The notes beneath the pieces are model-generated. The model was not told the origin of the DNA. It saw only the letters and a program-made list of their open reading frames with translations, and did not search any database. A stretch of 64,000 nt of DNA, from assembly GCF_036365525.1 (NCBI RefSeq), contig NC_090375.1:101688922-101752921 (forward strand), in the 5' to 3' direction. Position 1 is the stretch's first letter. The number at the start of each line of letters is the position of its first letter. Of the stretch, positions 1,000 to 35,700 are shown piece by piece. The translations under genes and the position numbers were made by a program. Source of the DNA: Heterodontus francisci. Taxonomy: Eukaryota.

Positions 1000-3900
1000 T
1001 CTTCTTCTTTGGCCTCCTTGTCTTGAGAGACAATGGGTAAGTGCCTGGAGGTGGTCAGTGGTTTGTGAAGCAGCGCCTGGAGTGGCTATAAAGACCAATT
1101 CTAGAGTGACAGACTCTTCCACAGGTGCTACAGATAAAATTGGTTGTCGGGGTTGTTACACAGTTGGCTCTCCCCTTGCGCTTCTGCCTATTTTCCTGCC
1201 AATTGCTAAGTCTCTTCGATTCACCACACTTTAGCCCTGCCTTTATGGCTGCCTGCCAGCTCTGGCGATCGCTGGCAACTGACTCCCACGACTTGTGGTC
1301 AATGTCACAGGACTACATGTCGCGTTTGCAGATGTCTTTAAAGCGGAGACATGGACGGCCGGTGATTCTGATACCAGTGACAAGCTCGCTGTACAATGTG
1401 TCCTTGGGGATCCTGCCATCTTCCATGCGGCTCACATGACCAAGCCATCTCAAGCGCCGCTGGCTCAGTAGGGTGTATATGTTGGGGATGTTGGCCGCCT
1501 CGAGGACTTCTGCGTTGGAGATACGGTACTGCCACCTGATTCCAAGGATTCTCCGGAGGCAGCGAAGATGGAATGAATTGAGACGTCGCTGTTGGCTGAC
1601 ATATATTGTCCAGGCCTCGCTGCCATAGAGCAAGGTACTGAGGACACAGGCTTGATACACTCGGACTTTTGTGTTCCGTGTCAGTGTGCCATTTTCCCAC
1701 ACTCTGTTGGCCAGTCTGGACATAGCAGTGGAAGCCTTTCCCATGCGCTTGTTGATTTCTGCATCGAGTGACAGGTTACTGGTGATAGTTGAGCCTAGGT
1801 AGGTGAACCCTTGAACCACTTCAAGAGCGTCGTCGCCAATATTGATGGATGGAGCATTTCTGACGTCCTGTCCCATGATGTTCGTTTTCTTGAGGCTGAT
1901 GGTTAGGCCAAATTCGTTGCATGCAGCCGCAATCCTGTCCATGAGTCTCTGCAGACACTCTTCTGTGTGAAATGTTCATGCAGCATCGTCAGCAAAGAGG
2001 AGTTCCCTGATGAGGACTTTCCGTACTTTGGTCTTCACTCTTAGACGGGCAAGGTTGAACAACCTGCCACCTGATCTTGTGTGGAGGAAAATTCCTTCTT
2101 CTGAAGACTTGAACGCATGTGAGAGCAGCAGGGAGAAGAAGATCCCAAACAGTGTAGGTGCGAGAACACAGCCCTGTTTCACGCCACTCAGGATAGGAAA
2201 GGGGTCTGATGAGGAGCCACCATGTTGAATTGTGCCTTTCATATTGTCATGGAATGAGGTGATGATACTTCGTAGCTTTGGTGGACATCCGATCTTTTCT
2301 AGTAGTCTGAAGAGACCACATCTGCTGACGAGGTCAAAGGCTTTGGTGAGATCAATGAAAGCAACGTAGAGGGGCATCTGTTGTTCGCGGCATTTCTCCT
2401 GTAGCTGGCGAAGGGAGAACAGCATGTCAATGGTGGATCTCTCTGCTTGAAAGCCGCACTGTGCCTCAGGGAAGACATGTTCAGCCAGCTTCTGGAGCCT
2501 GTTTTAAAGCAACTCGAGCGAAGACTTTCCCCACTATGCTGAGCAGAGAGATTCCACGGTAGTTGTTGCAGTCACCGCGGTCACCCTTGTTCTTATAGAG
2601 GGAGATGATATTGCAATCGCGCATGTCCTGTGGTACTGCTCCCTCGTCCCAGCACAGGCAAAGCAGTTTGTACAGTGCTGAAAGTATAGCAGGCTTGGCA
2701 CTCTTGATTATTTCAGGGGTAATGCCATCCTTCCCAGGGCTTTTCCGCTGGCTAGAGAATCAATGGCATTACTGAGTTCCGATTTTGTTGGCTGTACGTC
2801 CAGCTCATCCATGAGAGACTGGGCTGCACTGAGGGTGGTCTCAGTGACAACATTTTTCCTGGAGTACAGTTCTAGGTAGTGCTCCACCCAGCAATCCATT
2901 TGCTTGCGTTGGTCAGTGATTGTGTCCCCTGATTTAGATTTGAGGGGGGCGATCTTCTTGATGTTTGACCTAAAAGCTCTCTTAATGCCATCATACGTTC
3001 CTCTGATGTTTCTGCTGTCGGCGGCCAGCTGAATATGACTGCATAGGTGTTGCCAGTAGTCATTTGCGCAGTGCCTGGCTGTTCTTTGTGCAGCGCTTCT
3101 GGCTGCTTTAAGTGCTATGGATGTTAACTCACTGGGGGCTTTCTTGTAGTTCAGCAGTGCAAAGCGCTTAGCGGATATGACAGGTTCCAGCTCTTCAAAG
3201 TGTGATTGAAACCAGTCTGCATTCCGCTTCACACGTTTGCCAAAGGTGGTCATTGCTGAATCATGGATGGCGTCTCTAATGTGGGCCCACTTGGTCTCTG
3301 CATCCCCTGTGGGAGTGTTTTGAAGGGCTTTTTCGAGTGAATTTAGAAACTTACGTAACAGCTGTGGATAAGAAATTCTGCGAGTGTTGATGCGCGGGCG
3401 GCCCTTCTGCTTGGAGTGATGCAGCTTCTTTGGTTTGAGTCTAACCTTGCTGCACACCAGGGAGTGGTCAGTGTCGCAGTCCGCACTGTGGAAGCTGGGT
3501 GTGGTTTGAATGCTGTTTAAAGAGGCTCGCCTTGTGACGAGGAGGTCCAGCTGGTGGCAATGACGTGATCTTGGGTGCCTCCAAGAAACCTGGTGACAGG
3601 GTTTATTGTGAAAGAACAAGTTGGTGATGCAGAGGTTAGGATAGGTACACAACTCAAGGAGTCTCTGTCCATTCTCATTCATCTTTCCAATGCCATAGCA
3701 CCCAAGGCAGGAGGGCCATGTGTCATGGTCGGCCCCAACCCTGGCATTAAAGTCCCCCAGCAGGAACAGGTGTTCGGTATTGGGGATGCTACTAATGATA
3801 TTATGGAGTTCCTCGTAGAACTGGTCTTTAGCTTCAGGTGGGGAGCAGAATGTTGGAGCATAGATGCTGAGTAGGTGTACTGGACCAGAGGCGGTGAACA

Positions 3901-4089
3901 GTCGGATGGACAGTATGCGTTCTGAGCCATTTGAAGGTGGCTCTATCATGCTGAGCAAAGAGTTTATGATGGCGAAGCCCACTCCATGCTGTCTTGGTTC
4001 TTCAGGATCCCTACCCTGCCAGAAGAAGGTGTAGTCTTGCTCTCTTAGAGATCCACTCGTAGGGAGGCATGTCTCCTGAAGTGCTGCAA
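1000..4089 (-). mobile_element. RTE-clade LINE, 5'-truncated, frameshifted APE+RT ORF, (GAA)n tail
   Basis: ORF 2708..3982 has APE motifs (SIYAPT, GDFNARVG, DTDHSLV); 1976..2425 has GVKQGCVLAPTLF and LFADD; 1313..1942 has RRLRWLGHV. Tail TCTTCTTCTT at 1000-1009; 13-bp TSD at 987-999 and 4090-4102. Confidence 0.95.
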
Positions 4090-5660
4090 TGTTCTGCTAT
4101 CACATCCTTAATAATAGACTCTAGCAGTTTCCCCACTACTGATGTAAGGCTAACTGGTCTGTAATTCCCTGTTTTTTCTCTCCCTCCTTTTTTAAATAGT
4201 GGGGTTACATTTGCCACTCTCCAATCTGTAGGAACTGCTGCAGAGTCTATAGAATTTTGGAAGATGACCACCAATGCATCCACTATTTCCACTTCCGTTA
4301 GTACTCTGGGATGTAGATTATCAGGCCCTGGGGATTTGTCAGCCTTTAATCCTATTAATTTCCCTAGCAATATTTTTTTACTCATACTGATTTCCTTCAG
4401 TTATTCCCTCTCATTAGACCCTTGGTTCCCTAACATTTCTGGGAGGTTATTTGTGTCCTCCTTTGTGAAGACAGAACCAAAGTACGTGTTTAATTATTTT
4501 GCCATTTCTTTGTTCCCCATTATAATTTCCCCCATTTCTGACTGTAAGGGACCTACATTTTCCTTCATTAATCTTTTTCTCTTCACATATTTATAGAAGC
4601 TTTTCTAGTCAATTTTTATGTTCCCCGCAGGTTTACTCTCATACTCTTATTTTCCCCCGCTTAATCAACCTCTTTGTCCTCCTTTGCTAAACTGCTCCTA
4701 ATCCTCAGACTTGCTGCTTTTTCTGGCAATTTTATATGCCTCCTCTTTGGATCTAATGCTATCTCTAATTTCTTTTGTAAGACATGTCTGAGCCACCTTT
4801 CCGGTTTTATTTTTGTGCCAGACAGGAATGAATAATTGTTGTAATTCATGCACACGTTCTTTAAATATTATCCATTGCCTACCCATTGTCAACCCTTTTA
4901 GTAAAGTTCCCCAATCTACCGTAGCCAACTCACGCCTCATACCTTCATAGTTTCCTTTATTTAGATTCAGGACTCTAGTTTCAGATTCAACTCTCCATCT
5001 TAATGAAGAATTCTATCATGTTATGGTTGTTCCTCCCCAAGGGACCCGCACAACAAGATTATTAATTAATTCTTTCTCATTGCACAATACCCACTCTCGG
5101 ATAACCTGTTCTCTAGTTGGTTCCTCAACGTATTGGTCTAAAAAACCATCATGAACACACTCCAGGAAATCCTCCCCCACAGTATTATTGCTAATTTGGT
5201 TTGACCAATCTATATGTAGATTAAAATCACCCATGATTACAGTTGTACCCTTATTGCATTATCTCTAATTTCCTGTTTAATGCCATCTCTTACATCTCCA
5301 CTACAGTTTGGGGGCCTATAGACAACCCCCACCAAAGTTTTCTGTCCCTTGGTGTTTCTTAGCTCCACCCATACAGATTTCACATCATGATTTTCCAAGC
5401 CAATATCTTTCCTCACTATTGCATTGATTTGCTCCTTTCTTAACAACGCTACCACTCCTCCTTTCCCTTTTTGCCTGTCCAAACTAAATATTGAATACCC
5501 CTGGATGTTCAGTTCCCATCCTTGGTCACTCTGCAGCCATGTCTCCGTAATCCCAACTATGTCATAACCGTTTATATCTATTTGTGCTGTTAATTCATCT
5601 ACCTTATTGCGAATGCTCCGTGCATTAAGACACGATGCCTTTAGACTTGTCTTTTCAACA
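4090..5660 (-). mobile_element. CR1 LINE, endonuclease/linker part of ORF2 (decayed)
   Basis: ORFs 5237..5773 (CLNARSIRNK, GITETWL, VYRPPN), 5016..5234 (GDFNLHIDW) and 4011..4385 (KSPGPD, NYRPVSLTS). Confidence 0.93.
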
Positions 5661-6412
5661 TTGTTATTGGGAAAGAAAATCAGGTGTGGCATAAAGCCAG
5701 CAGCCAATTCAAACCTAACCCCCGGCTTCAGACTAGGAGGAATCCTGGGGGAACATTGGGGGTGATGGTGCATGAGTGGAAAGTGCAGCTATTGCTGAGA
5801 TTCTTTGGTTATAATTGGATAAGAAAGGAAACCAAGCAATGATAGTTTCAATAGAGCTAGACAATGGAGGAGAGATGTTGGACGAGGGTCATTAATTGAC
5901 TGTGTTGAAGGGCTGCAAAGAGTTTGAGGAAGGATATTGCACTGTAGCCACATAACCGTTTCTGGTTATGGCTCTTTCGGTGCTGTGGGGTACAAACCTG
6001 ATTGGAGAGTTTAAACAGAACTTTGTGGAAGGGGTAGGCACAGATCTGGTAGGTGACATGATGATCTTGATGACTAATAGGTGATTGTCCATCCTAACTA
6101 CCATCAAATCTCCAGAGAAGTCAGGGGTAGATTTTTGAGAAGCAGAGCGATCATGAGTGCAGTTTTGAAAGTTAATGTTCAATTGCCAGGGGACAAATCT
6201 TTTTTTGGCTTAAACTGGGGCCAAGAAAGGAAGTCAGGGAGTCAGGAGTATAGTCGGAATGGGTTTAAGGGCGAAAGTAGTATGTCTCTTGCCTGAGATG
6301 CTGTAGGAACTAAAGGGTGAACAACTGCCAATGTATTATATTAGAATTAAGCTACGTACCTTGTGTTTCAAGTCGTGTTCTTATGTGAAATGTATACTTG
6401 TATACTGTATTG

Positions 6413-7305
6413 TGTTACGATCAGGTGAGAAAGGGGTCTAGAGGTCCCTCTCAGCCTTCACCTGGTCTTACCATAACAGTGTTTAATTTTTAAACACACC
6501 GTGTTTTTAGCTCCTCCTTGGTGAATCCTTGTTCACCGCTTTCCAATTATAAGGCAAAGAAACTAGCACAGACAGGTTTTCTTAGGTTTAGAGAAGAAAA
6601 GTTGAAATTTATTAAACTTAAACTGTATTTTGGTTGACGCCTATGCATACACGAAACGTCCACGCGAGCATGCATGCAAATAGAGACAGAAAAGAGCAGA
6701 AGAAAAATAAAGTGGAAAAGTTTGAGGCAATATCTGAAGAATTTTTGTAATGGTTCTTCGAGCTCACTGTAGAGTCCTTGATTGGAGGTAGATCTTGCTT
6801 TTCGTCGGGGCCCAGTATTCTTCTTAAACCTTGTACACTGTAGGAGACTTTTCTCTCTTAGGATTCATGTGTCTTCAGTAGATTCAGAGGCTTGTGAGAA
6901 AGTGATGGGAGCAGACAGGAGAGATCTTCTCAGTCCAGGAGCAAACAGTCTTTCTCAGTTCAAACTCTCTGTGGCTAGTTCAAAGGACCCTGGAACAGCC
7001 AGTTAGTCACGTGGCCAGCTGGTCCAACCAGTCCTGGCCCTCTAGATTGTATCACCCCAACAGGCCCTGGAATGCACTACCCCACCCCCTCTCTGTCCTG
7101 TGATCAACATCCATTGTGGGTTGAATGTGTCAAGGAATGGTCCTTTGTCTACACAAGCACCATCTGTTAGTATGCAAATGTTTTTTGCCAGCCAAGGCTG
7201 ATCTGTTCAACAAGTCATTTTCTTGCTTCAGCAACAGTTCTAAATCAATGTTCATATGACAAAACCAATGTGCCTCATTCTTGGCAGATGGGGGGCTGCA
7301 TGACA
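6413..7305 (-). mobile_element. Solo LTR (Gypsy-like), 893 bp
   Basis: TGT...ACA termini; exact 4-bp TSD ATTG (6409-6412 and 7306-7309); minus-strand AATAAA at 6608-6613, about 195 bp from its 3' end. Confidence 0.8.
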
Positions 7306-7356
7306 ATTGGAGAGATGGTGAAAGACTGCAGCAACAATAACAGAAGTGGCTTTTGC

Positions 7357-7938
7357 TGTGAGACAGGATGTCCTGATAATTGCCCTTCTGCATTTCAATT
7401 AAGACAGATTCAGAGTATCAATAAGTGATAGACTTGTAGGCCTCATGGGGATGGAAATGCAAGTAAAGATATTCGGAGACCATTCATGACTGGAATGTTG
7501 ATGGGGATAGCAATCATTCCTCATTGTGTGACAATGACTTAGGGCATCAAAGCATCTGTAGAGACAATGTATAGAAGGTGAGGTCATATCTGACCAATCA
7601 AAAGGGTTAAAGTGGAATGTAACCTAATATGGAATGAAGGCACCCTTGGAGGGGGTATAAAAGAAGGGTGCTGAGAGACATTGGGGTGAAAAGATTTGAT
7701 GAAGAGACCATACTACAGTCAACAGAACACAGAGAGAAGACTACGCCACAGCTGCTCAGGAGGCAAGAACCGAGGACACTCTGCACGCTGCTGTATAACT
7801 ACTACCGTTGGTTAGGTATTGCTTGTAAATCCTTGCTATGCTTAATAAACTCTCTATCCTGATTTAAGAATACCAGAGTCTGTACCCTGTGGGTCAAAGG
7901 CCAGTCAACGTTCTGCCCAAACACACAACAATCTTACA
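7357..7938 (+). mobile_element. Solo LTR, 582 bp
   Basis: Inverted termini TGTGAGAC...ATCTTACA; flanks TTGC/ATGC match at 3 of 4 bases; CCAAT 7594, TATAAAAG 7656 and AATAAA 7844 are in canonical LTR order. Confidence 0.7.
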
Positions 7939-8181
7939 ATGCACTTGGAGAGGATGGGACAATGGGAGACACTAGAGGGACATGAATAATCAGATCTACC
8001 TTGATGATGAAAAAATCCATAATCCCTTTGCAATTGTTGTTTGAGAGGCCGGCAGAGGGGCTTCGAAAAGAGGTTGATAGTAGAGAAGAGGAATCTGTGT
8101 TTACCTTTATTAGAATGATTCTCTATTAGTGGGCTGTTTTGGCAGAGGAGAGCTAGGTCAGGTAGAACTTGATGTGGTCCG

Positions 8182-8405
8182 TGTCTCTCAGCACCCTTCT
8201 TTTATATCCCCTCCAAGGGTGCCTTCATTCCATATTAGGTTACATTCCACCTTAACCCTTTCGATTGGTCATATATGACCTCACCTTCTATACATTGTCT
8301 CTACAGGTGCTTTGATGGCCTAAGTCATTGTCACACAATGAGAAATGATTGCTATCCCCATCAACATTCCAGTCATGAATGGTCTCCAAATATCTTTACT
8401 TGCAT
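8182..8405 (-). repeat. Inverted duplicate of 7457-7680 (LTR promoter segment)
   Basis: 224-bp reverse-complement match with about 8 mismatches by eye. Confidence 0.95.
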
Positions 8406-9486
8406 GGATGCCTAAACCAGTTACGCATCAAGTATGCTCAAGTTTGTGCTCTTTGAAATTAAGAAAGTGAAGGTGGTGGCCCTACCAGAGGAATGACTGT
8501 ATATGGAGATGGTTAAAGTTTTGCTGGGGACAAAGAAATGCAGTGGTAGTATTATGAATGAAAAGTTAAAGGCTCATCATTATGGAGTTTGAGTATGCAG
8601 TTATAAGTGACATGGGGAGAATTTTCTCCTGGAGCTAATACAGAAGGAAGCAATGTTGAAAGAGGGTAGGGGGATATGGGTAGTGAGGCATACAAGGAAG
8701 TGGTCATGGCCTTGTCAGTGATTGAAACCATGATAGTGGAGAGCTCACAGAAAATGGTGACGTCAAGGAATAGGTATGAAAATGGATAGGCAAGTTTATA
8801 TGGACGGAGAAGTTTAGAGAGGACAAGAGGGCAGTGAACTCAAAGGAGGGAGTGCACAGGAAGCTGAGATGGCAATTGAAAACCCCACGGATGAGGAATT
8901 GCTTGATGCATTCACAGAGGTAGGAAGAAAGGAGGACATCTCAGGGAGAATCTCATGGCTGTGCTTGGATGGGCAGTAGACAATAAGGATTTTAAAGAGG
9001 CAAGAAGGGTGGAACTCGTTGAGGAGGTTGAAGGAGGATAAGGTGTCAGAGAATACAGAGCAAGTCCGAAGTGTGACTTGCTGATGGGGCCTCGATGGGT
9101 TTTGCACATAACTTGAAAGAAAGTTAATTTCTGAGGTATTGTTGATAACAATATGATGAAGCTGGTCAAATATGTTAAATGAGTGGAAGCTGTGGCAAAG
9201 AGGAGAGCTAGGCCAGGTAGAACTTGATGTGGGATAATCTGAGACTTTTGTGCTGGTGTGTCAAAAGCATAACATTAGAATTTCAGCGGTACTAAGTAAC
9301 CTGAAACTACATTGTTAAACTTTGATACTGTTAATATTCAGACTGGTATTCGCCAAGTAACTCAGGAGATTATAGATTAATTTCCCACATTAATGCAACA
9401 ACCAAAGTGCCATGTTTTTCTGATTAGTTTACTGAGAAGAAATCTAATGCAGACATCTACACAGCAGTTTATTTCAAGTAGTATAT

Positions 9487-9857
9487 GTTTGGTCTAGTGA
9501 TAGTATTCCTGCTTTGGAGCCAGGGGATCCTGCGTTCAAGGCACAGTCTGATAATTTGAGCTCATTGTCCAGGCGGATACATCAGTGCTATATTGTTGCA
9601 AGTGTCATTTTTCAGATGAGATGTTAAACTGAAGTCACATCGGTTTGTTCAGGTGGATGCAAAGGATCCCATGGCACGATTTGAAGACGACCAGGGGAGG
9701 TGACTGGAATATTTATTCCTCTATCAACACCTCCAAAGGTAGACCAATAACTGTTTGTAGACCTTGCCAAGTCCAAATTGGCTGTCGCATTGGCCTAAAA
9801 AGGACTTCAGGATGGACTGAGAATGTGAACAATGCTATGTAATTACAAATTCTTTCA
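9487..9857 (+). mobile_element. Decayed DeuSINE (SacSINE1-like)
   Basis: tRNA-like head (TGGTCTAGTGA...GTTCAAG), core GAGATGTTAAAC...CAGGTGGATGCAAAGGATCCCATGGCAC resembling the Deu domain as I recall it, and an L2-type tail remnant. Confidence 0.6.
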
Positions 9858-10038
9858 CTCACTGTCTTCCAAAATGACTTACTCATGTGGCCCCTGTGCA
9901 AAAGTTACAAAACCAGCTGAGTGATCTCTAGTGATATCAGTATATAATTTGACTAAAAATCATTTTGTTCTATAACATTAAGTTTATTAGTTTATAGATT
10001 AAAAGCTGCATTGACATATTTATAGGCTGTTAACATAA

Positions 10039-10890
10039 GGGATGGAATTTTATGCTCTCCCCCGCAGTGGGTACGGAGGCAGAGAGAGCTTAAAATTGGG
10101 TGGGATGGTGGTGGGGAGGAGACCCCGCCACCATCCCGCCTCTACCGAAATTTAGTCTGGAGTGGGAAGGCCTGTGAATGGCTTTCCTGCACTGCCACCA
10201 ATTGAGGTTCTTAACTGTGTAATTAACTCCTAAGTAAAAACCTCTTCCCACCACAGCCACAATTACCCATGCGGCAGGCGGCCCTGTCGCCACATGGGAA
10301 GCACAGCACAAAAAACCGTGCGGGCTGCTTCCCAGCTGTGATGGAGGTGGTCCCTCGTTCAAAGGCACTTAGTGCCTAGTGCCTGTGTGAGGGACCTGGC
10401 ATTGGGAAGTGTGGGGACGGCCCACTGACAGCCACCACCCTACCCTTGGTGCTGACACGTCTACATCCCTCCCCCACGACCCCCACCCTTGAGACCCCCT
10501 CCCGCCCTGATCTACCTTGAGCCCGGTTCCAGCGCCACTCTTCAGCCTCCGCAATGGAGCTGCAGCTGCCAGCCTCTGATTGGCCAGCAGCTCTGCAAGT
10601 CCGAGACCTCTGGCGGCGGGGTCCTAAATCATACAGAAGGCCTGATGCTGTCCAGTTAAGTGCATGATCGGCACTATATTTGGCTGGCCTTCCATACATG
10701 AGCTGACATGGAGATTATGACAAGTAAACTCCTGTCTGAAACAGCCAGCGGCCTGGGAGTCATTGTGAAGGCTTCAAATAAAATGGCAGAGGAAGGAATG
10801 AGTGCAAGAATGGGACATAAGTTCAATGCCATGATTTTAAGAGCCTAACAATCCTGATGTCGCCTAATGAAGGCTTTGAAAATCAGCCCC
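10039..10890. mobile_element. GC-rich non-autonomous Harbinger-type element (MITE)
   Basis: Degenerate TIRs GGGATGGAATTTT / GAAAATCAGCCCC, flanked by TAA and TAT. Internal sequence is related to 13820-14220, 49970-50600 and 52991-53732. Confidence 0.55.
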
Positions 10891-10934
10891 TATTTTTAAT
10901 ATTAAATGACATTCTTTGTTCTGTGAATTGACCC

Positions 10935-11290
10935 TCGATAACTAGCACAGGTAGATTGGAAAAGGAGATTGCAGGGTAAAGCAGTAAGGGAGCAATGGAG
11001 GGCATTCAAGGAAGAGATAGTTCAGGTGAAAACTAAGCACAGTCCTTTGAAGGGAAAAGGTAGAGCATCCAAAGCTAATGCACCCTGGATGACAAAGAAT
11101 TAAAAGTTAAAATAAAACAGGAAAAGAAGGTTTTTGATAAATGTCATGAGCAGGATTCAGTTAACAACTAAGACGGTTATGGAAAATACAGAATTGAAAT
11201 AGTTAATACGGGAGGTAACGAGAGGTTACAAGAAAAGATTAGCAGGCAATATGAAACTGAACCCTAAAACATTTTATAAACAAACAAGAT
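10935..11290 (+). mobile_element. Old CR1 ORF2 linker fragment
   Basis: Translates in pieces to EQWRAFKEEIVQ, APWMTK and NPKTFYK, typical of the CR1 linker region. Confidence 0.65.
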
Positions 11291-11799
11291 ACCAAACTTG
11301 GACACCTATAGTGCCCTGTTACCTGTAGTTTTGTCACTACATGCGTGGTTAAAGTACCAAAATGGCATCTGTACCATGCATACACTTCTGGCATGGCCCA
11401 TGCCAAATGCTATCTTGGTGAGGATATTAGGGCAGGCATTAAGAGTGTGCGCCAGAAGTATGCAGAGCCAGCAAATCGTGATGTCAGCCTATCCCACCTG
11501 TGGTAAGATTGCTTGGCAACGGGGAGGTGATGGGCCCTCTGCCACCTCACGGTTCTACATGCCCTCCCTGCCCACCTCCGACTCCGCCTCAGGGGGGCCC
11601 ATATAATCCCGCACAATGGGTCATCAATTACTCTCATGTTAGTTGCTGATGAATTTCTATTGGCTCTGTTTGAGTGTGTAGAAGTGCTTGGTGGTTTCCA
11701 GAGTTGCTCAACATTGGTGAGGTCAACGGGGAGTGGTAATGCACGTGGAGAATGCCTTGGTTCTCACTTCAAGAGCTTTGATCAGACCACTTGCTCCCA

Positions 11800-12949
11800 C
11801 CCATGGGTGCTGTAGTTGCCATTGCCTTGATATGCAGCATGAGAGGGAGATGGAACAAGGGCAGCACAGAAGTGGACAAGCTGCTTGCAGAGAGAGGAGG
11901 GGGAAGAAAAGCTCTCAGCAGGTGGGTCTTCCAAAAGTATTTCTTTTAACACACCCTAAGCCAGGAGCGGTGTGTGCGTTGTTTGCATTTTACAAAGGAG
12001 ATGCTCACAGAACTCCACCACCTCTTGCAACTCAGACCTGCAACTTCAGACCACGGCAAGGATGGTCCTGCCAGTGACTGTGAAGGTGACCCCGGGCTTG
12101 AATTTCTTTGCATCAGGATCATTCCAGGCTGGACCTCACAACATATATAGCATCTGCTGTATAAGAGAGCTGTCTATTGCTGTATATGAGAGGTGACAGA
12201 TGCTTTTATGCCAGGAGAGGGGAATTCATTGTGTTCTCTGTAAACAGAGGGAATCAGGCAAAGCGTGGACATGGCTTTGCCAAGATAGCAAATTTCCAGA
12301 TGGTGTAGGGTGCCACCAACAGCATACACGTGGCTTTGCAACACCTCAGCCCAATGCTCAGATTTACCACAACTGCAAATGTTACCACTCACTGAGTGCA
12401 GTTGCTGCAGAATGCCCTCTATCCTGGCAGCAGTTATGATGCTTTTATTCTTGCCAGTCTGTTGTTCCCTCAGTATTTGAACCACCACACCAAACCAGAC
12501 GGTAGCTGCCAGGAGACAATGTCTATCTGTTTAACACCTGGCTCATGATTCCACTTCGCAACCCAATCGCAGGTGGACAGCATGTGTACAATGAAAGCCA
12601 TGCTGCCACACGAAACATCATCGAGCTGACCACTGAAGTGCTGAAGCAATGGTTCAGCTGCCTGGATCGCTCTGGAGGAGCCCTGCAGCATTCACTGGAG
12701 TGTGTGCTCCAGTTTGTGGCAGTCTGCTGTATCCTCCACAACCCAGCCATCATGTGCACACAGTCCTTGTCACCAGGCATATGGCAAATAGTTAAGGATC
12801 AGAAGGAGGAGGAGGAGGAGGAGGAGCAGGAGGAAGAGAGGACACAGCCAACATCCCCTTTCGAGCTGGGCTGTCCGTGATCACCTCATCCAACTGATCA
12901 TCCAGCTGAATACATTGAATACAGCAAAGGCTATGGGCCCTGTGATTAG
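11800..12949 (+). pseudogene. PIF/Harbinger (HARBI1-like DDE) transposase, decayed
   Basis: LPVTVKVTPGLNFFASGSFQ in ORF 11972..12196; PLRNP...YNESHAATRNIIE...LKQWFSCLDRSGGALQH...CCILHN plus an acidic tail in ORF 12545..12880. Confidence 0.88.
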
Positions 12950-13195
12950 CCAGGATGCTGATGGTGGGGGATTCAACATTGATATTGCCCATGAATGTTA
13001 TGGCAGATGGTTAGATTTTCTCTTTTTGGAGGTAATAATTGCCTGACACTTGTGTGGCGCGAATATCACTTGTCACTTATCAGCCCAAGCCTGAATGTTA
13101 TCCAGGTCTTGCTGCATCTGGACACCGACTGCTTCAGTATCTGAAGAGTCACTAATGGTGCTGAACTTTGTGCAATCATCAGCGAACATCCCCAC
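12950..13195 (-). repeat. Inverted duplicate of LINE segment 13693-13819 + 15855-15973
   Basis: 246-bp reverse-complement match, about 7 mismatches by eye. It is continuous across the point where the forward copy is split. Confidence 0.93.
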
Positions 13196-13819
13196 CTACC
13201 CAACAATGTGGGAAATTGCCCAGATATATCCTGTCCACAAGAGGCAGGACAAATCCAATCTGGCCAATTACTGCCCCCCATCAATCTACTCTCAATCATC
13301 AGCAAAATGATGGAAGGTGTTATCGACAGAGCTATCAAGTAGCACTGACTCAGCAATCACCTGCTCACAGATCCTCAGTTAGCTTTCTGTCAGGGCCACT
13401 CAGATCCAGACCTCATTGGATCCTTGGTCCAAACATGAACAAAGGACTTGATTCCAGAAGTGAGGTGAGAGTGACTGCCCTTGACATCAAGGCAGCATTT
13501 GACCAAGTGTGTCATCAAGGAGCCCTTGCAAATTGAAGTCAATGGGAAAACTCGCCAATAGTTGGAGTCATATCTGGAGGCCAATCATCTCAGCCCCATG
13601 ACATTGCTGCAGGAGTTCCTCAGGGTAGTGTCCTAGGCCCAACCATCTTCAGCTGCTTCATCAATAACTTTCCCTCCATCATAAGGTCAGAAGTGGGGAT
13701 GTTCGCTGATGACTGCACAATGTTCAGCACCATTAGTGACTCTTCAGATACTGAAGCAGTCGGTGTCCAGATGCAGCAAGACCTGGATAACATTCAGGCT
13801 TGGGCTGATAAGTGACAAG

Positions 13820-15296
13820 GGGGGGTTCAGCAGCAAGGGCAGTGGGTGACTCTCAACAGGCCCCCCTTCCCGATACTGGGTCCCTCATTCAGGCACTAAG
13901 TGCCTTTTAATGGGCCCCCCCTCACCCCCACCATGCCAAAAGCCGGCAAGCACCCCGCACAGATTTGCTTGGTGTGCTCCTCGTGTGGAGACTGGCTCGC
14001 CCGCCACTGGACTAATTCCGGCGATGGCAAGATGTGGCCCTTCATTGGTCATTAATTAAGGGTTTCAATCAGCAGTGGGGTGGGAAGGCAGGTTCCCACC
14101 CCAGTCTTAATTTGGGTGGAGGCAGGAAGGTGGCAGGGTGCCCACCCTACCACCATCCTGCCCAATTATACGCTCTCCCTGCATCCAAATCCGATGCGGG
14201 GAGATCTTAAAATTCCCCTCATTGTATGAACAACAAATAATGGATGAGTTTCTGTTATTCACTCATATGGCAGTAATTATCCCATTTTCCTTCACAAAAT
14301 TTTAGCACCCAAATTCCACTGCTGAGCTGTATTTTATGGGTCCCTGGGAGACGGCATGGGCAGTGGGAGGGGTCCATAAAATAGTGATGGAAGACAGCAG
14401 ATGGTTTGCCTATCACCATGTGATTTTGTTAGGGGGTGGGAAAGACCAAAGACAGCCATCCGGCCCAGAGGCCAGTTGAGGCCCATAAGTGGCTAATTAA
14501 TAGCCACTTACGTCCTCTACCAGCCGCCACTAATATTTTACCAGTGGCTGGTGGGAGCCCCGCCACGTGGGGAGGTTGCCCAGTAAAACAAGGTGGCCTC
14601 CTGCGGGCTTGGCGGAGCTGGGGTTTGCGAGCCCTCCTCCGTGGGCAATCTGTGGCCCACAGAAGGCACCTGGTGGCGGAGGCTGCCCCTCCGCTAATAA
14701 CTCCCACCCCTGCCCTCATCGAACACCAGCACCCCCCTTGCCATGACCTGTTGGACTGGCCCTGGCGACCCTGCCACACTTACCTGTGGTCCGGGGTGGG
14801 CGGTGGGGTTTGGAGTTTTGTTCATGGAGTTTTAACAAAGGAGGGCTCAGCCACAGCTGTGGCTAGGGAACCTGCTGCTGTGTTGGTGGAATGTCGGGAA
14901 TGGTGGGGTCTTTGGATGTGGAGAGCTGGTCCAATGGTGGGGGGGGTGGTGGGTGGGGTGGAGGTCCAATGGCATGGTAGAAGGTAGCTTGGTGAGCTGA
15001 GATGAAGCACTCCTGCTCCTTCTGTCCCACAAGTAGTGCTGTGAGGCAACCTACCGTTTCCCCAAAACTGTCTTTCCCTCTCTTTAGTTGTCACATTTCC
15101 TGGCCAGGGTTAAACCTGCAAATGAGGCTTTTGTAATTACTTATTACAATATTTAAATGGTCAACATGCAACCTGGGAGCGGGCTGGCTGCCCGCCCCCT
15201 GTCCCGCCTCAAGGTTGGGGTCCAGTTTGAGATTTTCATAATTTTTACATTTCACTTGACACCAACCTACCCATTTTTGGGGTTAAAAGTACCCCC
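13820..15296. mobile_element. Fragments of GC-rich Harbinger-type MITEs
   Basis: 13820-14220 matches the internal and terminal part of the 49970-50600 and 10039-10890 family; 15100-15290 resembles 28190-28400. Confidence 0.55.
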
Positions 15297-15515
15297 TGGG
15301 AGTTAGTTTTGGTTCCTCACCATTCTATTGAGTTCAGTCATACTGTTTTAGGAGGCAAGGGGTATCCTTGCAGAAAGGAAGAGAAAATCTAGATGGAGAG
15401 TTCCCACCAGGGCACTGTTAATTGCCATCTGGGAAATGGCTAAGAATAGTATTAGCAGTAGGCTGAAAACAGAAAGGCTCTCATAACATCAAAGGTATAG
15501 GAGATGGCTGGGAAA

Positions 15516-15853
15516 GGGTGGCACAGTGGCGCAGTGGTTAGCACCGCAGCCTCACAGCTCCAGCGATCCGGGTTCAATTCTGGATACTGCCTGTGTGGAG
15601 TTTGCAAGTTCTCCCTGTGTCTGCGTGGGTTTCCTCCAGGTGCTCCGGTTTCCTCCCACATGCCAAAAGACTTGCAGGTTGATAGGTAAATTAGCCATTA
15701 TAAATTGCCCCTAGTATAGGTAGGTGGTAGGGAAGTGTGGGGATGTGGTAGGAATATGGAATTAATGTAGGATTAGTATAAATGGGTGGTTGATGGTCGG
15801 CACAGACTCGGTGGGCCAAAGGGCCTGTTTCAGTGCTGTATCTCTAAAAAAAA
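15516..15853 (+). mobile_element. HE1-type tRNA-derived V-SINE
   Basis: A box TGGCGCAGTGG, B box GGTTCAATTCT, V-domain core TGTGTGGAGTTTGCAAGTTCTCCC...CCGGTTTCCTCCCACA, CR1-like tail GGGCCTGTTTCAGTGCTGTA followed by A8. Confidence 0.92.
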
Positions 15854-16639
15854 GTGACATTCGCACCACACAAGTGTCAGGCAATTATTACCTCCAAAAA
15901 GAGAAAATCTAACCATCTGCCATGACATTCATGGGCAATATTAATGTTGAATTCCCCACCATCAGCATCCTGGGGGTTACCATTGACCAGAAACTAAACT
16001 GGACCAGCCATATAAATATTGTGGTTACAGGAGCAGGTCAGAAGCTGGGAATTCTGCTGAGAATAACTCACCTCCAGACTCCCCAAAGCCTGCCCACCAT
16101 CTACAAGGCACAAGCCAGGAGTGTGATGGAATACTCTCCACTTGCCTGGAAGAGTATAGCTCCAACAGCACTCAAGAAGTTCGACATCATCCAGGACAAA
16201 GATGCCGCTTAATTAGTACCCCATCCACCAACTTCAACATTCACTCTCTCCACCACCGGTGCACAGTGGCAGCAGTGTGTACCATCTACAAGATGCACTG
16301 CAGCCATTTTCCAAGTCTCCTTCAAAAGCACCTCCCAAACCCGCGACCTCTTCCACCTAGAAGAATAAGGGCAGCAGATGCATGGGAACACCACCACCTG
16401 CAAGTTTCCCTCCAAGCCACACACCATCCTGACTTGGAACTATATCGTTGTTCTTTCACTGTCGCTGGGTCAAAATCTTGGAACCCCTTCTCTAATAACA
16501 CTGTGGGTGTACCTACACCCCAAGTACTGCAGCAGTTCAAGAAGGCAGCTCACCACCGCCTTTTCAAGGGCAATTAGAAATGGGCAGTAAATGCTGACCT
16601 AGCCAGCAACGCTCACATCCCATGAACGAATAGGAAAAG

Positions 16640-17896
16640 CTATGATTCCAATGAGTACAACACCAAATCACCATTACACAACAGTCACACAATTTACACA
16701 TCACAACATCCACTTGGCCGCAATTCTGAAGTGAAAGCCACCACGAAACAACCATTCCAAATCAACTTTATCCAACAAAAAATCTAATATTCCATACAAA
16801 AGTCAACTAATTACCCTTGTGTATTTCCTGAATACTTCTGTGTGCTTTTGCCTGTCCTAGTGCTCCTATACCGTGCTACCCCAGTGGCTGCAGCATGGTT
16901 AGTAGAAGGCTGCTGATTTTCAATGGGGGGAGCTGCAGATGACTTTTGTGAATGGCTTGGGGCAGTCCTAAGCCTATAAGACCCAGCTTCAGACTGCACC
17001 AGCTCAGCATGGGAGGCAGCAGTCTGTGCTGGCTGGCAGAGAGGCAGTGGTGGGAGACGAATGCTGTCATACTGAGAGAGGTCAGCAGGATTGTGCTCCA
17101 TGAAGCCACTGTCATTCCCCCAGGCAGTGCCACGGATATCTTAATAATCTACTGGATCACTGATTGCTGAACTGCTGCAAGCTCCTTTGAACTCTGGTAA
17201 CCGCAGCCATAATGGCAGCAGTCTGAGCTTGCAAGGCAACAAGCTGACATTCCAGGAACTTGGCCTGAACTTCCACTTCAGCACCCAGAGATTGGGTTGC
17301 TTCTGCTTGTACTCCAATGGAAGCTGAGCCATCGACCATCAGACGCTGCATCATGGTTGGGTCCAATTGTTCTCATGTAGTTGGCTGTCATTACATGCTA
17401 CAAAGGATGGGCTCCAATCTCTGCACAAAGCCCTGTGACAAGTTGGAGATGGACTCCTCCATGCTCCTTGGCAGCGACATCAGGTTTCCTGGCAGGCCTT
17501 CCAATGCACCAAAGCATTTCATTGTGCATGTGCATCAGCCTTTTTCTGTACACCACCCCATCTGAGTCCTCTGCAGCAGAACTCGTATGCAATCTTACCC
17601 ACCAGGAAGCTGGCAGCTGCACTCTTCTACCTTGGCTGCAGACCACTCGTGCCCAGTGACTCACATATGCCGAATCCATTCTAACGTACGTGCTGTACCA
17701 GCATCTGAGCTGGTGGCTGCAAATGAGAGATCGAGTGACGATGTTTCTTCTTCATCAGTGTCATACTCCACTTCAACCTCAGTGCTTGACCAGATGCCAA
17801 TTCTTGCATATTCAAAAGGATAAAGGCACAAGGGTAGGCTTGTATGAGGGAAGACAGGGTAAGCAAGAGGTGCATGTTTACACCGCTTACACTTTT
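16640..17896 (-). mobile_element. Harbinger element, remnant of the second (Myb/SANT-type) gene; probably the continuation of the 11800-12949 element
   Basis: Convergent to the transposase; acidic/Ser-rich and coiled-coil-like remnants (EEETSSLDLSFAATSSD, RSMEESISNL) parallel to 61800-62300. Confidence 0.5.
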
Positions 17897-18302
17897 GGGG
17901 GGGAAATTGGATTAGGCTGGAAAACAATTACACTGCGCCCATTCATTGCCATGCAATCAGCATTCAAACTTTGCGCTGCCTGCTAATTTAAATGATAGTG
18001 GCGTGCAGCCTAGTTCTAGGTGCACTGCTAAGTGGCTGAATCCCTCAGCAGAGGGCCTAAGTTTGTGGAAGGCTGGCACCACTTAAAGCTACCCGGCACT
18101 ACTTAAAGCCAGTCTGCAACTCTTAAAAGCGAGGTGCATTCTGGCTGCAGCAGGTGCTAGAACTGGTAACAGAAGAGTCTTCGAGCAGGAAATGGCACAA
18201 CAGGGTAGAGAGCATGCTTCAAGGTTCTCTGGAACAGCACTGTAGGCCTTGGTGCAGGAGGTGGAGAGAAGGAGAGAGGCCCTCTTCCCACAGGGTGCAG
18301 GA
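17897..18302 (+). mobile_element. Harbinger terminus with the N-terminal Myb/SANT-like coding remnant
   Basis: Starts GGGGGGGAAATTGG. From ATG 18192 it reads MAQQGREHASRFSGTAL*ALVQEVERRREALFP, an MSANTD-like helix 1; truncated by a CR1 fragment. Confidence 0.6.
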
Positions 18303-21665: not shown

Positions 21666-21900
21666 TTACACATAAATCCTTAAAGGTAGCACAGCAAGTT
21701 GATAAGGTGGTTAAAAATATGGATTCCGATGGATTACTTACAGAGGAATAGAATATAAAAGCAAAGAGATCATGCTAAAACTGTATAAATCACTAGCTGG
21801 GCCTCAGCTGGATTAGAACAAAGAACAAAGAACAAAGAAAATTACAGCACAGGAACAGGCCCTTCGGCCCTCCAAGCCTGCGCCGATCCAGATCCTCTAT

Positions 21901-24856
21901 CTAAACATGTTGCCTATTTTCCAAGGGTCTGTATCTCTTTGCTTCCTGCCCATTCATGTATCTGCCGAGATACATCTTAAAAGACGCTATCGTGCCCGCA
22001 TCTACCATCTCCGCTGGCAACGCGTTCCAGGCACCCACCATCCTCTGCGTAAAGAACTTTCCACGCATATCCCCCCTAAACTTTACCCCTCTCACTTTGA
22101 ACTCGTGACCCCTAGTAATTGAATCCCCCACTCTGGGAAAAAGCTTCTTGTTATCCACCCTGTCTATACCTCTCATGATTTTGTACACCTCAATCAGGTC
22201 CCCCCTCAACCTCCGTCTTTCTAATGAAAATAATCCTAATCTACTCAACCTCTCTTCATAGCTAGCGCCCTCCATACCAGGCAACATCCTGGTGAACCTC
22301 CTCTGCACCCTCTCCAAAGCATCTACATCCTTTTGGTAATGTGGCGACCAGAACTGCACGCAGTATTCCAAATGTGGCCGAACCAAAGTCTTATACAACT
22401 GTAACATGACCTGCCAACTCTTGTACTCAATACCCCGTCCGATGAAGGAAAGCATGCCGTATGCCTTCTTGACCACTCTATTGACCTGCGTTGCCACCTT
22501 CAGGGAACAATGGACCTGAACACCCAAATCTCTCTGTACATCAATTTTCCCCAGGACTTTTCCATTTACTGTATAATTCACTCTTGAATTGGATCTTCCA
22601 AAATGCATCACCTCGCATTTGCCCTGATTGAACTCCATCTGCCATTTCTCTGCCCAACTCTCCAATCTATTTATATTCTGCTGTATTCTCTGACAGTCCC
22701 CTTCACTATCTGCTACTCCACCAATCTTAGTGTCGTCTGCAAACTTGCTAATCAGACCACCTATACTTTCCTCCAAATCATTTATGTATATCACAAACAA
22801 CAGTGGTCCCAACACGGATCCCTGTGGAACACCACTGGTCACACGTCTCCATTTTGAGAAACTCCCTTCCACTGCTACTCTCTGTCTCCTGTTGCCCAGC
22901 CAGTTCTTTATCCATCTAGCTAGTACACCCTGGACCCTATGCGACTTCACTTTCTCCATCAGCCTACCATGGGGAACCTTATCAAACGCCTTACTGAAGT
23001 CCATGTATATGACATCTACAGCCCTTCCCTCATCAATCAACTTTGTCACTTCCTCAAAGAATTCTATTAAGTTGGTAAGACATGACCTTCCCTGCACAAA
23101 ACCATGTTGCCTATCACTGATAAGCCCATTTTCTTCCAAATGGGAATAGATCCGATCCCTCAGTATCTTCTCCAGCAGCTTCCCTACCACTGACGTCAGG
23201 CTCACCGGTCTATAATTACCTAGATTTTCCCTGCTACCCTTCTTAAACAAGGGAACAACATTAGCAATTCTCCAGTCCTCCGGGACCTCACCCGTGTTTA
23301 AGGATGCTGCAAAAGATATCTGTTAAGGCCCCAACTATTTCCTCTCTCGCTTCCCACAGTAACCTAGGATAGATCCCATCCGGACCTGGGGACTTGTCCA
23401 CCTTAATGCCTTTTAGAATACCCAACACTTCCTCCCTCCTTATGCCGACTTGACCGAGAGTAATCAAACATCTGTCCCTAACCTCAACATCCATCATGTC
23501 CCTCTCCTCGGTGAATACCGATGCAAAGTACTCGTTTAGAATCTCACCCATTTTCTCTGACCCCACGCATAACTTTCCTCCTTTGTCCTTGAGTGAGCCA
23601 ATCCTTTCTCTAGTTACCCTCTTGCTCCTTATATATGAATAAAAGGCTTTGGGATTTTCCTTAACCCTGTTTGCTAAAGATATTTCATGACCCCTTTTAG
23701 CCCTCTTAATTCCTCGTTTCAGATTGGTCCGACATTCCCGATATTCTTTCAAAGCTTCGTCTTTCTTCAGCCTCCTAGACCTTATGTATGCTTCCTTTTT
23801 CCTCTTAGCTAGTCTCACAATTTCACCTGTCATCCATGGTTCCCTAATCTTGCCATTTCTATCCCTCATTTTCACAGGAACATGTCTCTCCTGCACGCTA
23901 ATCAACCTCTCTTTAAAAGCCTCCCACATATCAAATGTGGATTTACCTTCAAACAGCTGCTTCCAATCTACATTCCCCAGCTCCTGCCGAATTTTGGTAT
24001 AGTTGGCCTTCCCCCAATTTAGCACTCTTCCTTTGGGACCACTCTCGTCTTTGTCCATGAGTATTCTAAAACTTACGGAATTGTGATCACTATTCCCAAA
24101 GTCGTCCCCTACTGAAACGTCAACCACCTGGCCGGGCTCATTCCCCAACACCAGGTCCAGTATGGCCCCTTCCCGAGTTGGACTATTTACATACTGCTCT
24201 AGAAAACCCTCCTGGATGCTCCTTACAAATTCTGCTCCATCTGGACCTCTAACACTAAGTGAATCCCAGTCAATGTTGGGAAAATTAAAATATCCTATCA
24301 CCACCACCCTGTTGCTCCTACATCTTTCCATAATCTGTTTACATATTTGTACCTCTATCTCACACTCGCTGTTGGGAGGCCTGTAGTACAGCCCCAACAT
24401 TGTTACCGCACCCTTCCTATTTCTGAGTTCTGCCCATATTGCCTCACTGCTCGAGTCCTCCATAGTGCCCTCCTTCAGCACAGATGTGATATCCTCTTTG
24501 ACCAGTACTGCAACTCCTCCACCCCTTTTACCTCCCTCTCTATCCCGCCGGAAGCATCGATATCCTGGGATATTTAGTTGCCAATCATGCCCTTCCCTCA
24601 ACCAAGTCTCAGTAATAGCAATAACATCATACTCCCAGGTACTAATCCAGGCCCTAAGTTCATCTGCCTTACCTACTACACTTCTTGCATTAAAACAAAT
24701 GCACCTCAGACCACCAGTCCCTTTGCGTTCATCATCTGCTCCCTGTCTACTCTTTCTCTTTGTCATGCTTACTTCATTATTTAGTTCCTTACAGGCTTTA
24801 GTTACTACCTCCTTACTGTCCACTGACCTCATTTGGTTCCCATCCCCCTGCCACAT
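21901..24856 (-). pseudogene. CR1 ORF2 (APE endonuclease + reverse transcriptase), single frameshift near 23311
   Basis: CFNARS, TETWL, YYRPPN and SDHN in the endonuclease; QGSVLGP and FADD in the RT. The two ORFs join if one base of an A4 run is removed. Confidence 0.93.
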
Positions 24857-25789
24857 TAGTTTAAACCCTCCCCAACAGCGTTAGCAAAGGCACCCCCAAG
24901 GACATTGGTTCCAGTCCGGCCCAGGTGTAGACCGTCCAATTTGTAATAGTCCCACCTCCCCCAGAACCGGTCCCAATGTCCCAGAAATCTGAACCCCTCC
25001 CTCCTGCACCATCTCTCAAGCCACGCATTCATCCTGACTACTCTTTCATTTCTACTCTGACTATCACGTGGCACTGGTAGCAATCCTGAGATTACTACCA
25101 CTGAGGTCCTACTTTTTAACTTGGCTCCTAACTCCCTAAATTCTGCTTGTAGGACCTCATCCCGTTTTTTACCTATATCATTGGTGCCTCTGTGCACAAC
25201 GACAACTGGCTGTTCACCCTCCCCTTTCAGAATGCTCTGCAGCCGATCTGAGACATCCCTGACCCGTGCACCTGGGAGGCAACATACCATTCGGGAGTCT
25301 CGTTTTCGACCACAGAACCGCCTATCTACTCCCCTTACAATCGAATCCCCGATGACTATAGCCCTTCCACTCTTTTTCCCGCCCTTCCGAACAGCAGAGC
25401 CAGCCACGGTGCCATGAACCTGGCTGCTGCTGCCTTCCCCTGGTGTGCCATCTCCCTCAACAGTATCCAAAACAGTATACCTGTTTTGGAGGGAGATGAC
25501 CGCAGGGGACACCTGCGCTGCCTTCCTGCTCTTTCTCTGCCTTTTGGTCACCCTCAGCAATCCTGATCTGCGATGTGACCAATTCGCTAAACGTGCTATC
25601 CACGACCTCCTCAGCATCGCGGATGCTCCAAAGTGAGTCCATCCGCAGCTCCAGAGCCGTCATGCGGTCTAACAAGAGCTGCAGCTGGACATACTTCCAG
25701 CACGTGAAGGAGTCAGGGACATCAGCTGTGTCCCTGAGCTCCCACATTGAGCAAGAGGAGCATAACACGGGTCTGAGATCTCCTGCCAT
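24856..25789 (-). pseudogene. CR1 ORF1: zinc finger/coiled coil plus SGNH esterase, one frameshift near 25550
   Basis: CSSCSMWE...TCWKYVQLQLL at the N-terminus; VIGDSIVR, GTNDIG and DGLHL esterase motifs. Confidence 0.88.
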
Positions 25790-35539: not shown

Positions 35540-35700
35540 AACAGATCTGGCAGCAGCAATGGAGAGAGAAACAAAGTCAATGTTTCAGGTCAATGACCCT
35601 GTTTCTCTCTCCACAGATGCTGCCAGACCTGCTGAGCATTTCCAGCAATTTTTGTTTCTATTTCAGTTATTCCAGCATCCATAGTATTTCACTTTTGTAT
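35540..35700. repeat. Fold-back Penelope terminal-repeat fragment
   Basis: TCTGGCAGCA...GGAGAGAGAAACA is mirrored by TGTTTCTCTCTCCA...TGCTGCCAGA. Confidence 0.75.

What the first reader, a model, noticed from the sequence alone, without database searches (positions are those of the whole stretch)
7457..13819. Two unrelated local inverted duplications with almost identical geometry
Seen: 7457-7680 is mirrored at 8182-8405 (224 bp, about 8 mismatches, spacer 501 bp). 12950-13195 mirrors the LINE segment starting at 13693 (246 bp, about 7 mismatches, spacer 497 bp). The copied material is unrelated (an LTR interior versus a LINE RT interior), has no element ends or tails, and shows similar divergence. 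Inference: a recurrent DNA-level templated-insertion process, such as fork template switching or break repair copying from about 0.5 kb away, with a characteristic length scale. Standard repeat annotation would hide this by labelling each copy as another TE fragment.
Basis: partly seen in the sequence, partly recalled or inferred. Interest (0 to 1): 0.75.

Follow-up and report, generated by a model that had tools for sequence, protein, structure and literature searches.

The report
Two backwards DNA-repair copy scars
Two short pieces of dead jumping-gene DNA in a shark-like genome each occur again, backwards, about 500 bases away, likely pasted in while broken DNA was being repaired; such scars are already catalogued in vertebrates, and the near-identical spacing is probably chance.

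Summary
Both mirror pairs are real. Pair 1 is as described (224 bp, 8 mismatches, spacer 501). Pair 2 (246 bp, 7 mismatches, spacer 497) holds only if a 2,032-bp insert that splits its source arm is removed.

Each copy came from its neighbour, not from the wider family. Both arms carry letters that other family copies lack, and in pair 2 they share a stop codon and a frameshift. Copy 2 lies inside its LINE, replacing about 91 bp with 7 bp of filler, so it is not a 5' inversion made at insertion.

This fits repair-mediated duplications (Pace 2009: median 147 bp, donors within 5 kb) and human inverted duplications (median 284 bp). A broad scale of hundreds of bases is therefore known; a sharp 500-bp peak is not shown. 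Two random human cases match this closely about 0.07% of the time. The two events also lie 4.5 kb apart in mirror layout, so a coupled origin is not excluded. No genome was held for the decisive scan. The scan noted similar copies before on other DNA (spacers about 0.3-9.8 kb, unchecked).

The parts
6302..7938 (+). Solo LTR-like element B (about 740 bp without the nested element), donor element of pair 1; TG...CA ends, 4-bp target duplication ATGC, TATA-like and AATAAA-like motifs; class of retroelement not determined
   Evidence: Ends and duplication read and; multicopy in organism A, nearly absent from B and C at 7700-7899
6413..7305 (.). Second solo LTR-like element A nested in B; TG...CA ends, 4-bp target duplication ATTG
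7457..7680 (+). Donor arm 1 (interior of LTR B)
   Evidence: lies within a longer LTR that continues on both sides
7681..8181 (.). Spacer 1, 501 bp: rest of LTR B plus a piece of the old host repeat
8182..8405 (-). Acceptor arm 1: inverted copy of 7457-7680 inside an old repeat, no tail, no target duplication seen
   Evidence: shares two letters with the donor against the family (rows 8221, 8348)
7943..9200 (-). Old host repeat on both sides of acceptor 1; read as an L2-like LINE ORF2 from recalled motifs, label not confirmed by any search
   Evidence: Contigs of organisms B and C align to 8011-8180 with 27 and 30 other letters in 170, and give depth at 8500-8899; Pfam, profile and protein searches gave no significant hit
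9199..9232 (+). 34-bp direct copy (33 of 34 alike) of 8144-8177, which ends 4 bp from the acceptor-1 junction; possibly a third templated piece
11762..12903 (+). DDE transposase relic (PIF/Harbinger-like by recall) into which the LINE inserted; continues at about 16638-18300
   Evidence: PF13359 E 1.4e-11; related copies at 29238-30900 and 60800-61400 show no large loss at the site
12904..12942 (+). Likely 5' stub of the same LINE on the far side of acceptor 2 (reads L-N-T-L-N-T-A-K-A-M-G-P)
   Evidence: profile positions 451-466, weak alone (2.9 bits, E 0.04 among 30 frames) but in order with positions 498-530 at 13197
12943..12949 (+). 7-bp filler at the outer junction of acceptor 2; no second copy on either strand in 11000-17500
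   Evidence: boundary inferred
12950..13195 (-). Acceptor arm 2: uninterrupted 246-bp inverted copy of the LINE RT segment, replacing about 91 bp of LINE (inferred)
13196..13692 (+). Spacer 2, 497 bp: LINE RT coding relic
   Evidence: PF00078 E 1.4e-15
13693..13819 (+). Donor arm 2, first half
13820..15851 (+). 2,032-bp insert in donor 2: begins in the middle of a small repeat, ends in a tRNA-headed SINE-like element with an A tail; 1-3-bp target duplication
   Evidence: SINE label recalled
15852..15973 (+). Donor arm 2, second half
15974..16637 (+). Rest of the LINE to its decayed 3' end; candidate 4-bp target duplication AGCT at 12904-12907 and 16638-16641, unverified

Best explanation
The two mirror pairs are inverted local copies, likely left by two separate repairs of broken DNA in which a broken end copied about 230 bases from roughly 0.5 kb away in reverse and was then rejoined. 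Shown: the copies, their direction, their local source, and the lack of tails. Inferred: a trimmed 3' end folded back on its own strand or invaded the sister or homologue, a polymerase extended it away from the break, and the new strand was released and joined to the other end. This cost about 91 bp and added 7 bp of filler at locus 2. Both events came long after the host elements had landed and decayed; the 2-kb insert most likely entered donor 2 afterwards. The scale is the broad one known for repair-mediated duplications, and the 4-bp match of the spacers is probably coincidence. The scars likely have no function.
For: Local source at locus 1: at 8221 and 8348 family reads differ from both arms (X15: 31 of 31 and 23 of 23 reads; X1 depth 2019 of 2180 and 4615 of 4620); a third row, 8307, is private to the acceptor. 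Only 40 of 652 rows were shown. Local source at locus 2: in the 30 letters 13008-13037 both arms are identical and differ from the family majority at 6; in 12975-13004 they share about 10 differences including a 1-bp gap (counted by eye table 7; these windows are biased to diverged spots). Both arms carry a stop where P0001 and P0002 have W, and both shift frame after N-H-L-P. Interrupted element with deletion and filler: the LINE motif lies left of acceptor 2, and in 38 of 38 homologues that matched the pattern (of 65 examined) the spacing to the next W is 32 residues, which gives a 91-nt loss. Known class: 824 human proximal duplications, median 147 bp, maximum 619 bp, with deletions, filler or microhomology and no tails (PMC2671141); 277 human inverted duplications, median 284 bp (PMC12350158).
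Against: The match is tight: only 11 of 24,753 pairs among the 223 typed human cases agree within 4 bp and 22 bp, and the smoothed chance is 0.0007. The events are 4,544 bp apart, of like age and in mirror layout. At human densities (0.2-0.6 per Mb) 0.001-0.03 such neighbouring pairs are expected per genome; about 6 per Mb or more is needed to expect roughly one (the 6-Gb genome size there is my assumption). The 91-bp loss exceeds the 1-15 nt deletions in Pace's Table 1. Microhomology could not be tested, as no empty sites were available. Host continuity at locus 1 rests on recall.
Confidence: 0.65

Rival explanations
1. The two copies arose together or at one break-prone spot: two breaks about 4.5 kb apart were processed alike, each outer 3' end looping back about 500 nt and copying about 230 nt before rejoining the middle piece.
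For: Mirror layout donor-501-acceptor, 4,544 bp, acceptor-497-donor; equal divergence within error; low chance under independence at human densities. Mouse germline deletions at hotspot pairs carried local inverted inserts of 16-709 bp, one with an insert from each hotspot (10.1101/2020.06.23.168138, passages).
Against: The tolerances were chosen after seeing the data, and the window was picked from a very large scan. The divergence intervals are wide. This window may simply be rich in local copies (2-4 in 64 kb). The mouse events delete the middle piece, which is kept here.
Confidence: 0.2
2. The copies are not newly synthesised: small fragments cut out of the sister chromatid or homologue by two close breaks were ligated backwards into a nearby break.
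For: The junctions look blunt from the window alone (0 nt extension of either arm). Insertion of 15-349-bp double-cut fragments with 0-2 bp microhomology is described in mouse germlines (passages).
Against: It was described mainly in Atm-null mice. It needs three breaks per event. The sequence outcome cannot be told from synthesis.
Confidence: 0.06
3. Copy 2 was made during the LINE's own insertion (5' inversion, twin priming or fold-back of the new cDNA) from an already defective RNA.
For: Acceptor 2 lies only about 45 bp from the LINE's apparent 5' end, and the host shows no large loss. Inverted duplications beside L1 insertions are described (10.1101/2024.12.14.628481, passages). The profile hit for the stub is weak on its own.
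Against: LINE-sense sequence lies outside the inverted arm. The arms share a stop, a frameshift and many differences from the family while differing by only 2.8%. It does not explain locus 1.
Confidence: 0.05
4. The acceptors are independent element fragments that were later made similar to their neighbours by gene conversion.
For: Both donors belong to multicopy families.
Against: The acceptors have no ends, tails or target duplications. Similarity covers each acceptor from end to end, on both sides of the 2-kb insert.
Confidence: 0.03
5. The pairs are assembly or amplification artefacts.
For: The listing showed no contig across the junctions of pair 2 (24 of about 222,000 pieces listed). Run X1 may be the source sample.
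Against: The arms differ by 15 substitutions, 12 of them transitions. One donor holds an insert with a tail and a target duplication. An X1 contig spans 7824-8237 across the 8181/8182 junction, and another spans 8376-9632 with 30 letters left of 8405/8406.
Confidence: 0.01

Closest known systems
Repair-mediated proximal duplications (RDs), Pace, Sen, Batzer and Feschotte 2009, PMC2671141 (read: parts 1-6 of 8 of the text; Table S1 parts 1, 5, 8 of 15)
   Same: Insert of 50-619 bp inside an old element; donor within 5 kb; no poly(A) tail; deletion and filler at the junction; found from primates to zebrafish.
   Different: Here the donors are repeats, which their pipeline excluded. The 91-bp loss is larger than their 1-15 nt. 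They give no orientation counts ('inverted' occurs 0 times) and no cartilaginous fish. The 500-bp spacers sit at about the 7th percentile of the 223 typed distances.
Inverted duplications among human structural variants, PMC12350158 (passages)
   Same: 277 events, median 284 bp, mostly with 1-15 bp microhomology; replicative origin suggested.
   Different: Those are polymorphic human alleles; the passages seen give no donor distances. Microhomology could not be tested here.
Four-point template-switch mutations of type 3-2-1-4 / 1-4-3-2, PMC5453318 (passages)
   Same: One reverse-complement copy of nearby sequence creates an inverted repeat with an uninverted spacer.
   Different: That study targets short mutation clusters; the arms and spacers here are hundreds of bases.
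Inverted duplications by self-annealing of resected break ends, including beside L1 insertions (10.1101/2024.12.14.628481, passages; yeast fold-back insertions PMC11724301, search listing only)
   Same: A fold-back primed copy of local DNA at a break gives the same layout.
   Different: Their inverted duplications involve small hairpins (yeast copies about 5-34 bp); here the loop would be about 500 nt, and the events postdate element insertion.

Membership tests
Repair-mediated proximal duplication (Pace 2009) | Insert of at least 50 bp, within the observed range up to 619 bp | tested here: met
   224 and 246 bp
Repair-mediated proximal duplication (Pace 2009) | Donor more than 50 bp and less than 5 kb away | tested here: met
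   501 and 497 bp
Repair-mediated proximal duplication (Pace 2009) | Insert interrupts an element whose halves are in order | tested here: inconclusive
   Locus 2: LINE motif left and RT right, in order, but a 91-nt gap exceeds their +/-30-bp filter and the stub hit is weak. Locus 1: old repeat on both sides, but order not confirmed (negative)
Repair-mediated proximal duplication (Pace 2009) | No poly(A/T) tail on the insert | tested here: met
   Junctions printed
Repair-mediated proximal duplication (Pace 2009) | Deletion, filler or microhomology at the breakpoints | tested here: inconclusive
   Locus 2: inferred 91-nt deletion and 7-nt filler. Locus 1 and microhomology: no empty site available
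Repair-mediated proximal duplication (Pace 2009) | Donor identified unambiguously (their operational rule: single other copy) | tested here: inconclusive
   The donors are repeats, so their single-copy filter cannot apply; shared letters and lesions point to the local donor, but only 40 of 652 difference rows were shown and no full family comparison was possible
Repair-mediated proximal duplication (Pace 2009) | Empty orthologous site in a related genome | not testable with these tools
   No genome held; other organisms hold only 0.05 of the words; the metagenome motif scan gave 4 unrelated loci of 4
LINE 5' inversion (twin priming or fold-back at insertion) | Inverted segment forms the outer 5' end of the insertion, directly against host DNA | tested here: not met
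   LINE-sense K-A-M-G-P stub lies between host and inverted arm; evidence moderate
LINE 5' inversion (twin priming or fold-back at insertion) | Arms as old as the insertion | tested here: not met
   Arms differ by 2.8% but share a stop, a frameshift and 6 of 30 and about 10 of 30 differences from the family majority
Transposon with terminal inverted repeats (MITE-like unit) | Target duplication outside the arms and both arms at element ends | tested here: not met
   Donor arms continue into their LTR or LINE on both sides; outer flanks share 0 nt

The most novel reading that the evidence does not exclude
The two copies are one coupled germline event, or mark a preferred reach of the repair machinery. 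Each break end looped back about 500 nt and copied about 230 nt, giving a mirror-symmetric pair 4.5 kb apart. The same lower limit of about 0.4-0.5 kb may hold from sharks to primates: only 1 of 223 typed human cases lies under 300 bp and 5 of 223 under 400 bp. The authors ascribe their distance peak partly to method bias, but donor 2 here lies in the same element as its copy and is free of that bias. Repeat-derived copies hidden by annotation would then be a fossil ruler of germline end resection or loop size.
Probability: 0.2. Interest if true: 0.6.

Novelty: new member of a known kind. Interest (0 to 1): 0.27.

Why it matters
As it stands these are two tidy shark examples of a catalogued repair scar. 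They show that copies with repeat donors, which the main survey excluded, can be found by shared private letters. If a genome-wide scan showed a sharp distance floor or paired mirror events, old genomes would record how far germline break ends reach, and slowly evolving shark genomes (slow rate recalled, not from a call) would be a good place to measure it.

Tried and rejected
Whole-genome scan: no genome is held. Read check of the host across locus 2: not obtained, so host continuity rests on two distant copies in the window (about 60% alike, resolution tens of bases). Identity of the host at locus 1: Pfam gave nothing; one profile search and one word search were sent in frames that were mostly off and found nothing, which is weak evidence; a gapped motif scan of metagenomes gave 4 loci, none related to the window. 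First idea that arm 2 sits at the LINE's 5' end: dropped. A 6-bp target duplication at 12930-12935 / 16639-16644: not excluded, but it overlaps the LINE motif, and LINE-sense sequence lies outside the arm either way. Source for the 7-bp filler: none in 11000-17500. Earlier notes near the locus or like its sequence: none. Literature searches for a published fixed 500-bp spacer; none listed such a result, but the library lacks most subscription papers and I read only the texts named. PMC7025897 and PMC5398296 (passages) gave context only. Runs X5-X14 hold a small share of the words and are not used as evidence of orthology.
Full report
Setting. The window is repeat-rich vertebrate DNA with no N. 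Earlier scan notes call this genome horn shark (unchecked), and one hit protein is labelled Heterodontus francisci. No whole genome is held, so no genome-wide test could be run.

Observation. Pair 1 is as reported: 7457-7680 mirrors 8182-8405 without gaps, 8 mismatches, spacer 501. Pair 2 is real but misdescribed. The 246-bp arm 12950-13195 mirrors 13693-13819 (127 bp, 2 mismatches) and then 15852-15973 (122 bp, 5 mismatches), with a 3-bp overlap. A 2,032-bp insert ending in a SINE-like element and an A tail splits the source arm. Shuffles gave at most 34-nt inverted matches in 10 of 10 trials. Twelve of the 15 mismatches are transitions. An X1 contig crosses the 8181/8182 junction and another reaches 30 letters past 8405/8406; none was listed for pair 2, and X1 may be the source sample.

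Locus 1. A solo LTR-like element B (6302-7938, target duplication ATGC) holds a second one, A (6413-7305, duplication ATTG). Both sit in an older repeat that other organisms share. I read that repeat as L2-like from recalled motifs; no call confirmed the label. The donor arm is an interior part of B. The acceptor lies in the old repeat, 243 bp beyond B's end, with no tail. Of the 40 difference rows shown (of 652), three fall in the acceptor. At 8221 and 8348 family reads differ from both arms (31 of 31 and 23 of 23 raw reads in X15); at 8307 only the acceptor differs. The acceptor was therefore copied from this particular LTR. A 34-bp direct copy of 8144-8177 lies at 9199-9232 and may be a third templated piece.

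Locus 2. A truncated LINE with an RT relic (PF00078) lies in a DDE transposase relic (PF13359) that shows no large loss at the site (low resolution). I first took the inverted arm for the LINE's 5' end. However, 12904-12942 reads L-N-T-L-N-T-A-K-A-M-G-P. It aligns weakly (2.9 bits) to positions 451-466 of a profile built from homologues, just before positions 498-530 at 13197. In 38 of 38 homologues matching the pattern, of 65 examined, the spacing to the next tryptophan is fixed, which puts the loss at 91 nt with 7 nt of filler. Both arms carry a stop where P0001 and P0002 have tryptophan, and both shift frame at the same place. They agree with each other and differ from the family majority at 6 of 30 and about 10 of 30 letters in the two windows that one search printed (by eye; biased to diverged spots). 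The copy is thus much younger than the LINE and sits inside it. The simplest order is LINE insertion, decay, inverted copy, then the 2-kb insert; copying from an allele that lacked the insert is not excluded.

Mechanism. Shown: local source, reverse direction, no tails. Inferred: at a break, a trimmed 3' end primed about 500 nt away, on its own strand or on the sister or homologue, copied 224-246 nt, was released and rejoined. Any inverted insertion has this layout, so the sequence cannot separate fold-back, strand invasion, fork switching or ligation of a cut-out fragment. Microhomology could not be tested without empty sites.

Comparison with what is known. Pace et al. 2009 (PMC2671141; text parts 1-6 of 8) found 824 human repair-mediated duplications within 5 kb, mean 162 and median 147 bp, with an apparent distance peak near 1,200 bp that they flag as partly method bias. 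Such events were also found in chicken and zebrafish, and repeat donors were excluded. Human long-read data list 277 inverted duplications with a median of 284 bp (PMC12350158, passages). The four-point model names this layout (PMC5453318, passages). Supplements of the bioRxiv papers were not seen.

Is the matching geometry meaningful? The median distance is 1,145 bp; 13 of 223 lie at 450-550 bp, 26 of 223 are 200-260 bp long, and 1 of 223 is both. Of 24,753 pairs, 11 match within 4 and 22 bp, and the smoothed chance is 0.0007; within 5% and 10% it is 0.005. With an assumed 6-Gb genome, a matched neighbouring pair is expected 0.001-0.03 times at human densities, about 0.5-3 times at 6 per Mb and 5-34 times at 20 per Mb. 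The shark density is unknown; this selected window holds 2-4 local copies in 64 kb. So chance is plausible given post-hoc tolerances and a very large scan, but it is not proven. The mirror layout keeps a coupled origin alive, with a loose precedent in mouse hotspot pairs (10.1101/2020.06.23.168138, passages).

Verdict. Real, old, likely functionless repair scars of a known kind: a new member of that kind, interest 0.27. The bolder reading, a coupled event or a conserved reach near 0.5 kb, has probability about 0.2 and would merit about 0.6.

Noticed in passing
window 13820-15851: 2,032-bp insert that starts in the middle of a small repeat, carries about 1.7 kb of mixed repeat and other DNA, and ends in a SINE-like element with an A tail and a 1-3-bp target duplication; looks like a retroposed read-in transcript (5' transduction) or a distant templated copy.
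   Followed up: partly
window 21819-22555 and 26356-27092: 737-bp inverted pair, 97% alike, 3,800 bp apart, both ending in the LINE's microsatellite tail; other family copies in the window are about 79% alike. Twenty of 24 mismatches fall in the 300 bp nearest the tail. Probably two insertions of a young family, but a local copy or conversion is not excluded.
   Followed up: partly
window 8144-8177 and 9199-9232: 34-bp direct copy, 33 of 34 alike, 1,055 bp start to start, ending 4 bp from the first acceptor's junction; may belong to the same repair event.
   Followed up: partly
window 6302-7938: One solo LTR nested in another, each with a 4-bp target duplication; the outer family is common in organism A and nearly absent from organisms B and C.
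   Followed up: partly
window 1003-4090: A roughly 3-kb element that reads like a little-decayed LINE on the minus strand interrupts an older CR1-like copy; its first 351 bp match 41370-41720 at 91%.
   Followed up: no
window 21800-26200: Long LINE copy on the minus strand with open stretches of 530, 473 and 267 codons, so a young insertion.
   Followed up: no
window 25998-26033 and 26088-26123: 36-bp direct repeat, 94% alike, 54 bp apart.
   Followed up: no
window 55026-55201 and 35542-35631: Self-complementary stretches (176 bp, 82%; 90 bp, 76%) made of copies of a small repeat family also found at 33934-34042, 49329-49468 and 52557-52660.
   Followed up: no
PMC2671141 Table S1: Human donor-acceptor distances are almost absent below 300 bp (1 of 223 typed rows) and rise steeply at 400 bp.
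   Followed up: partly
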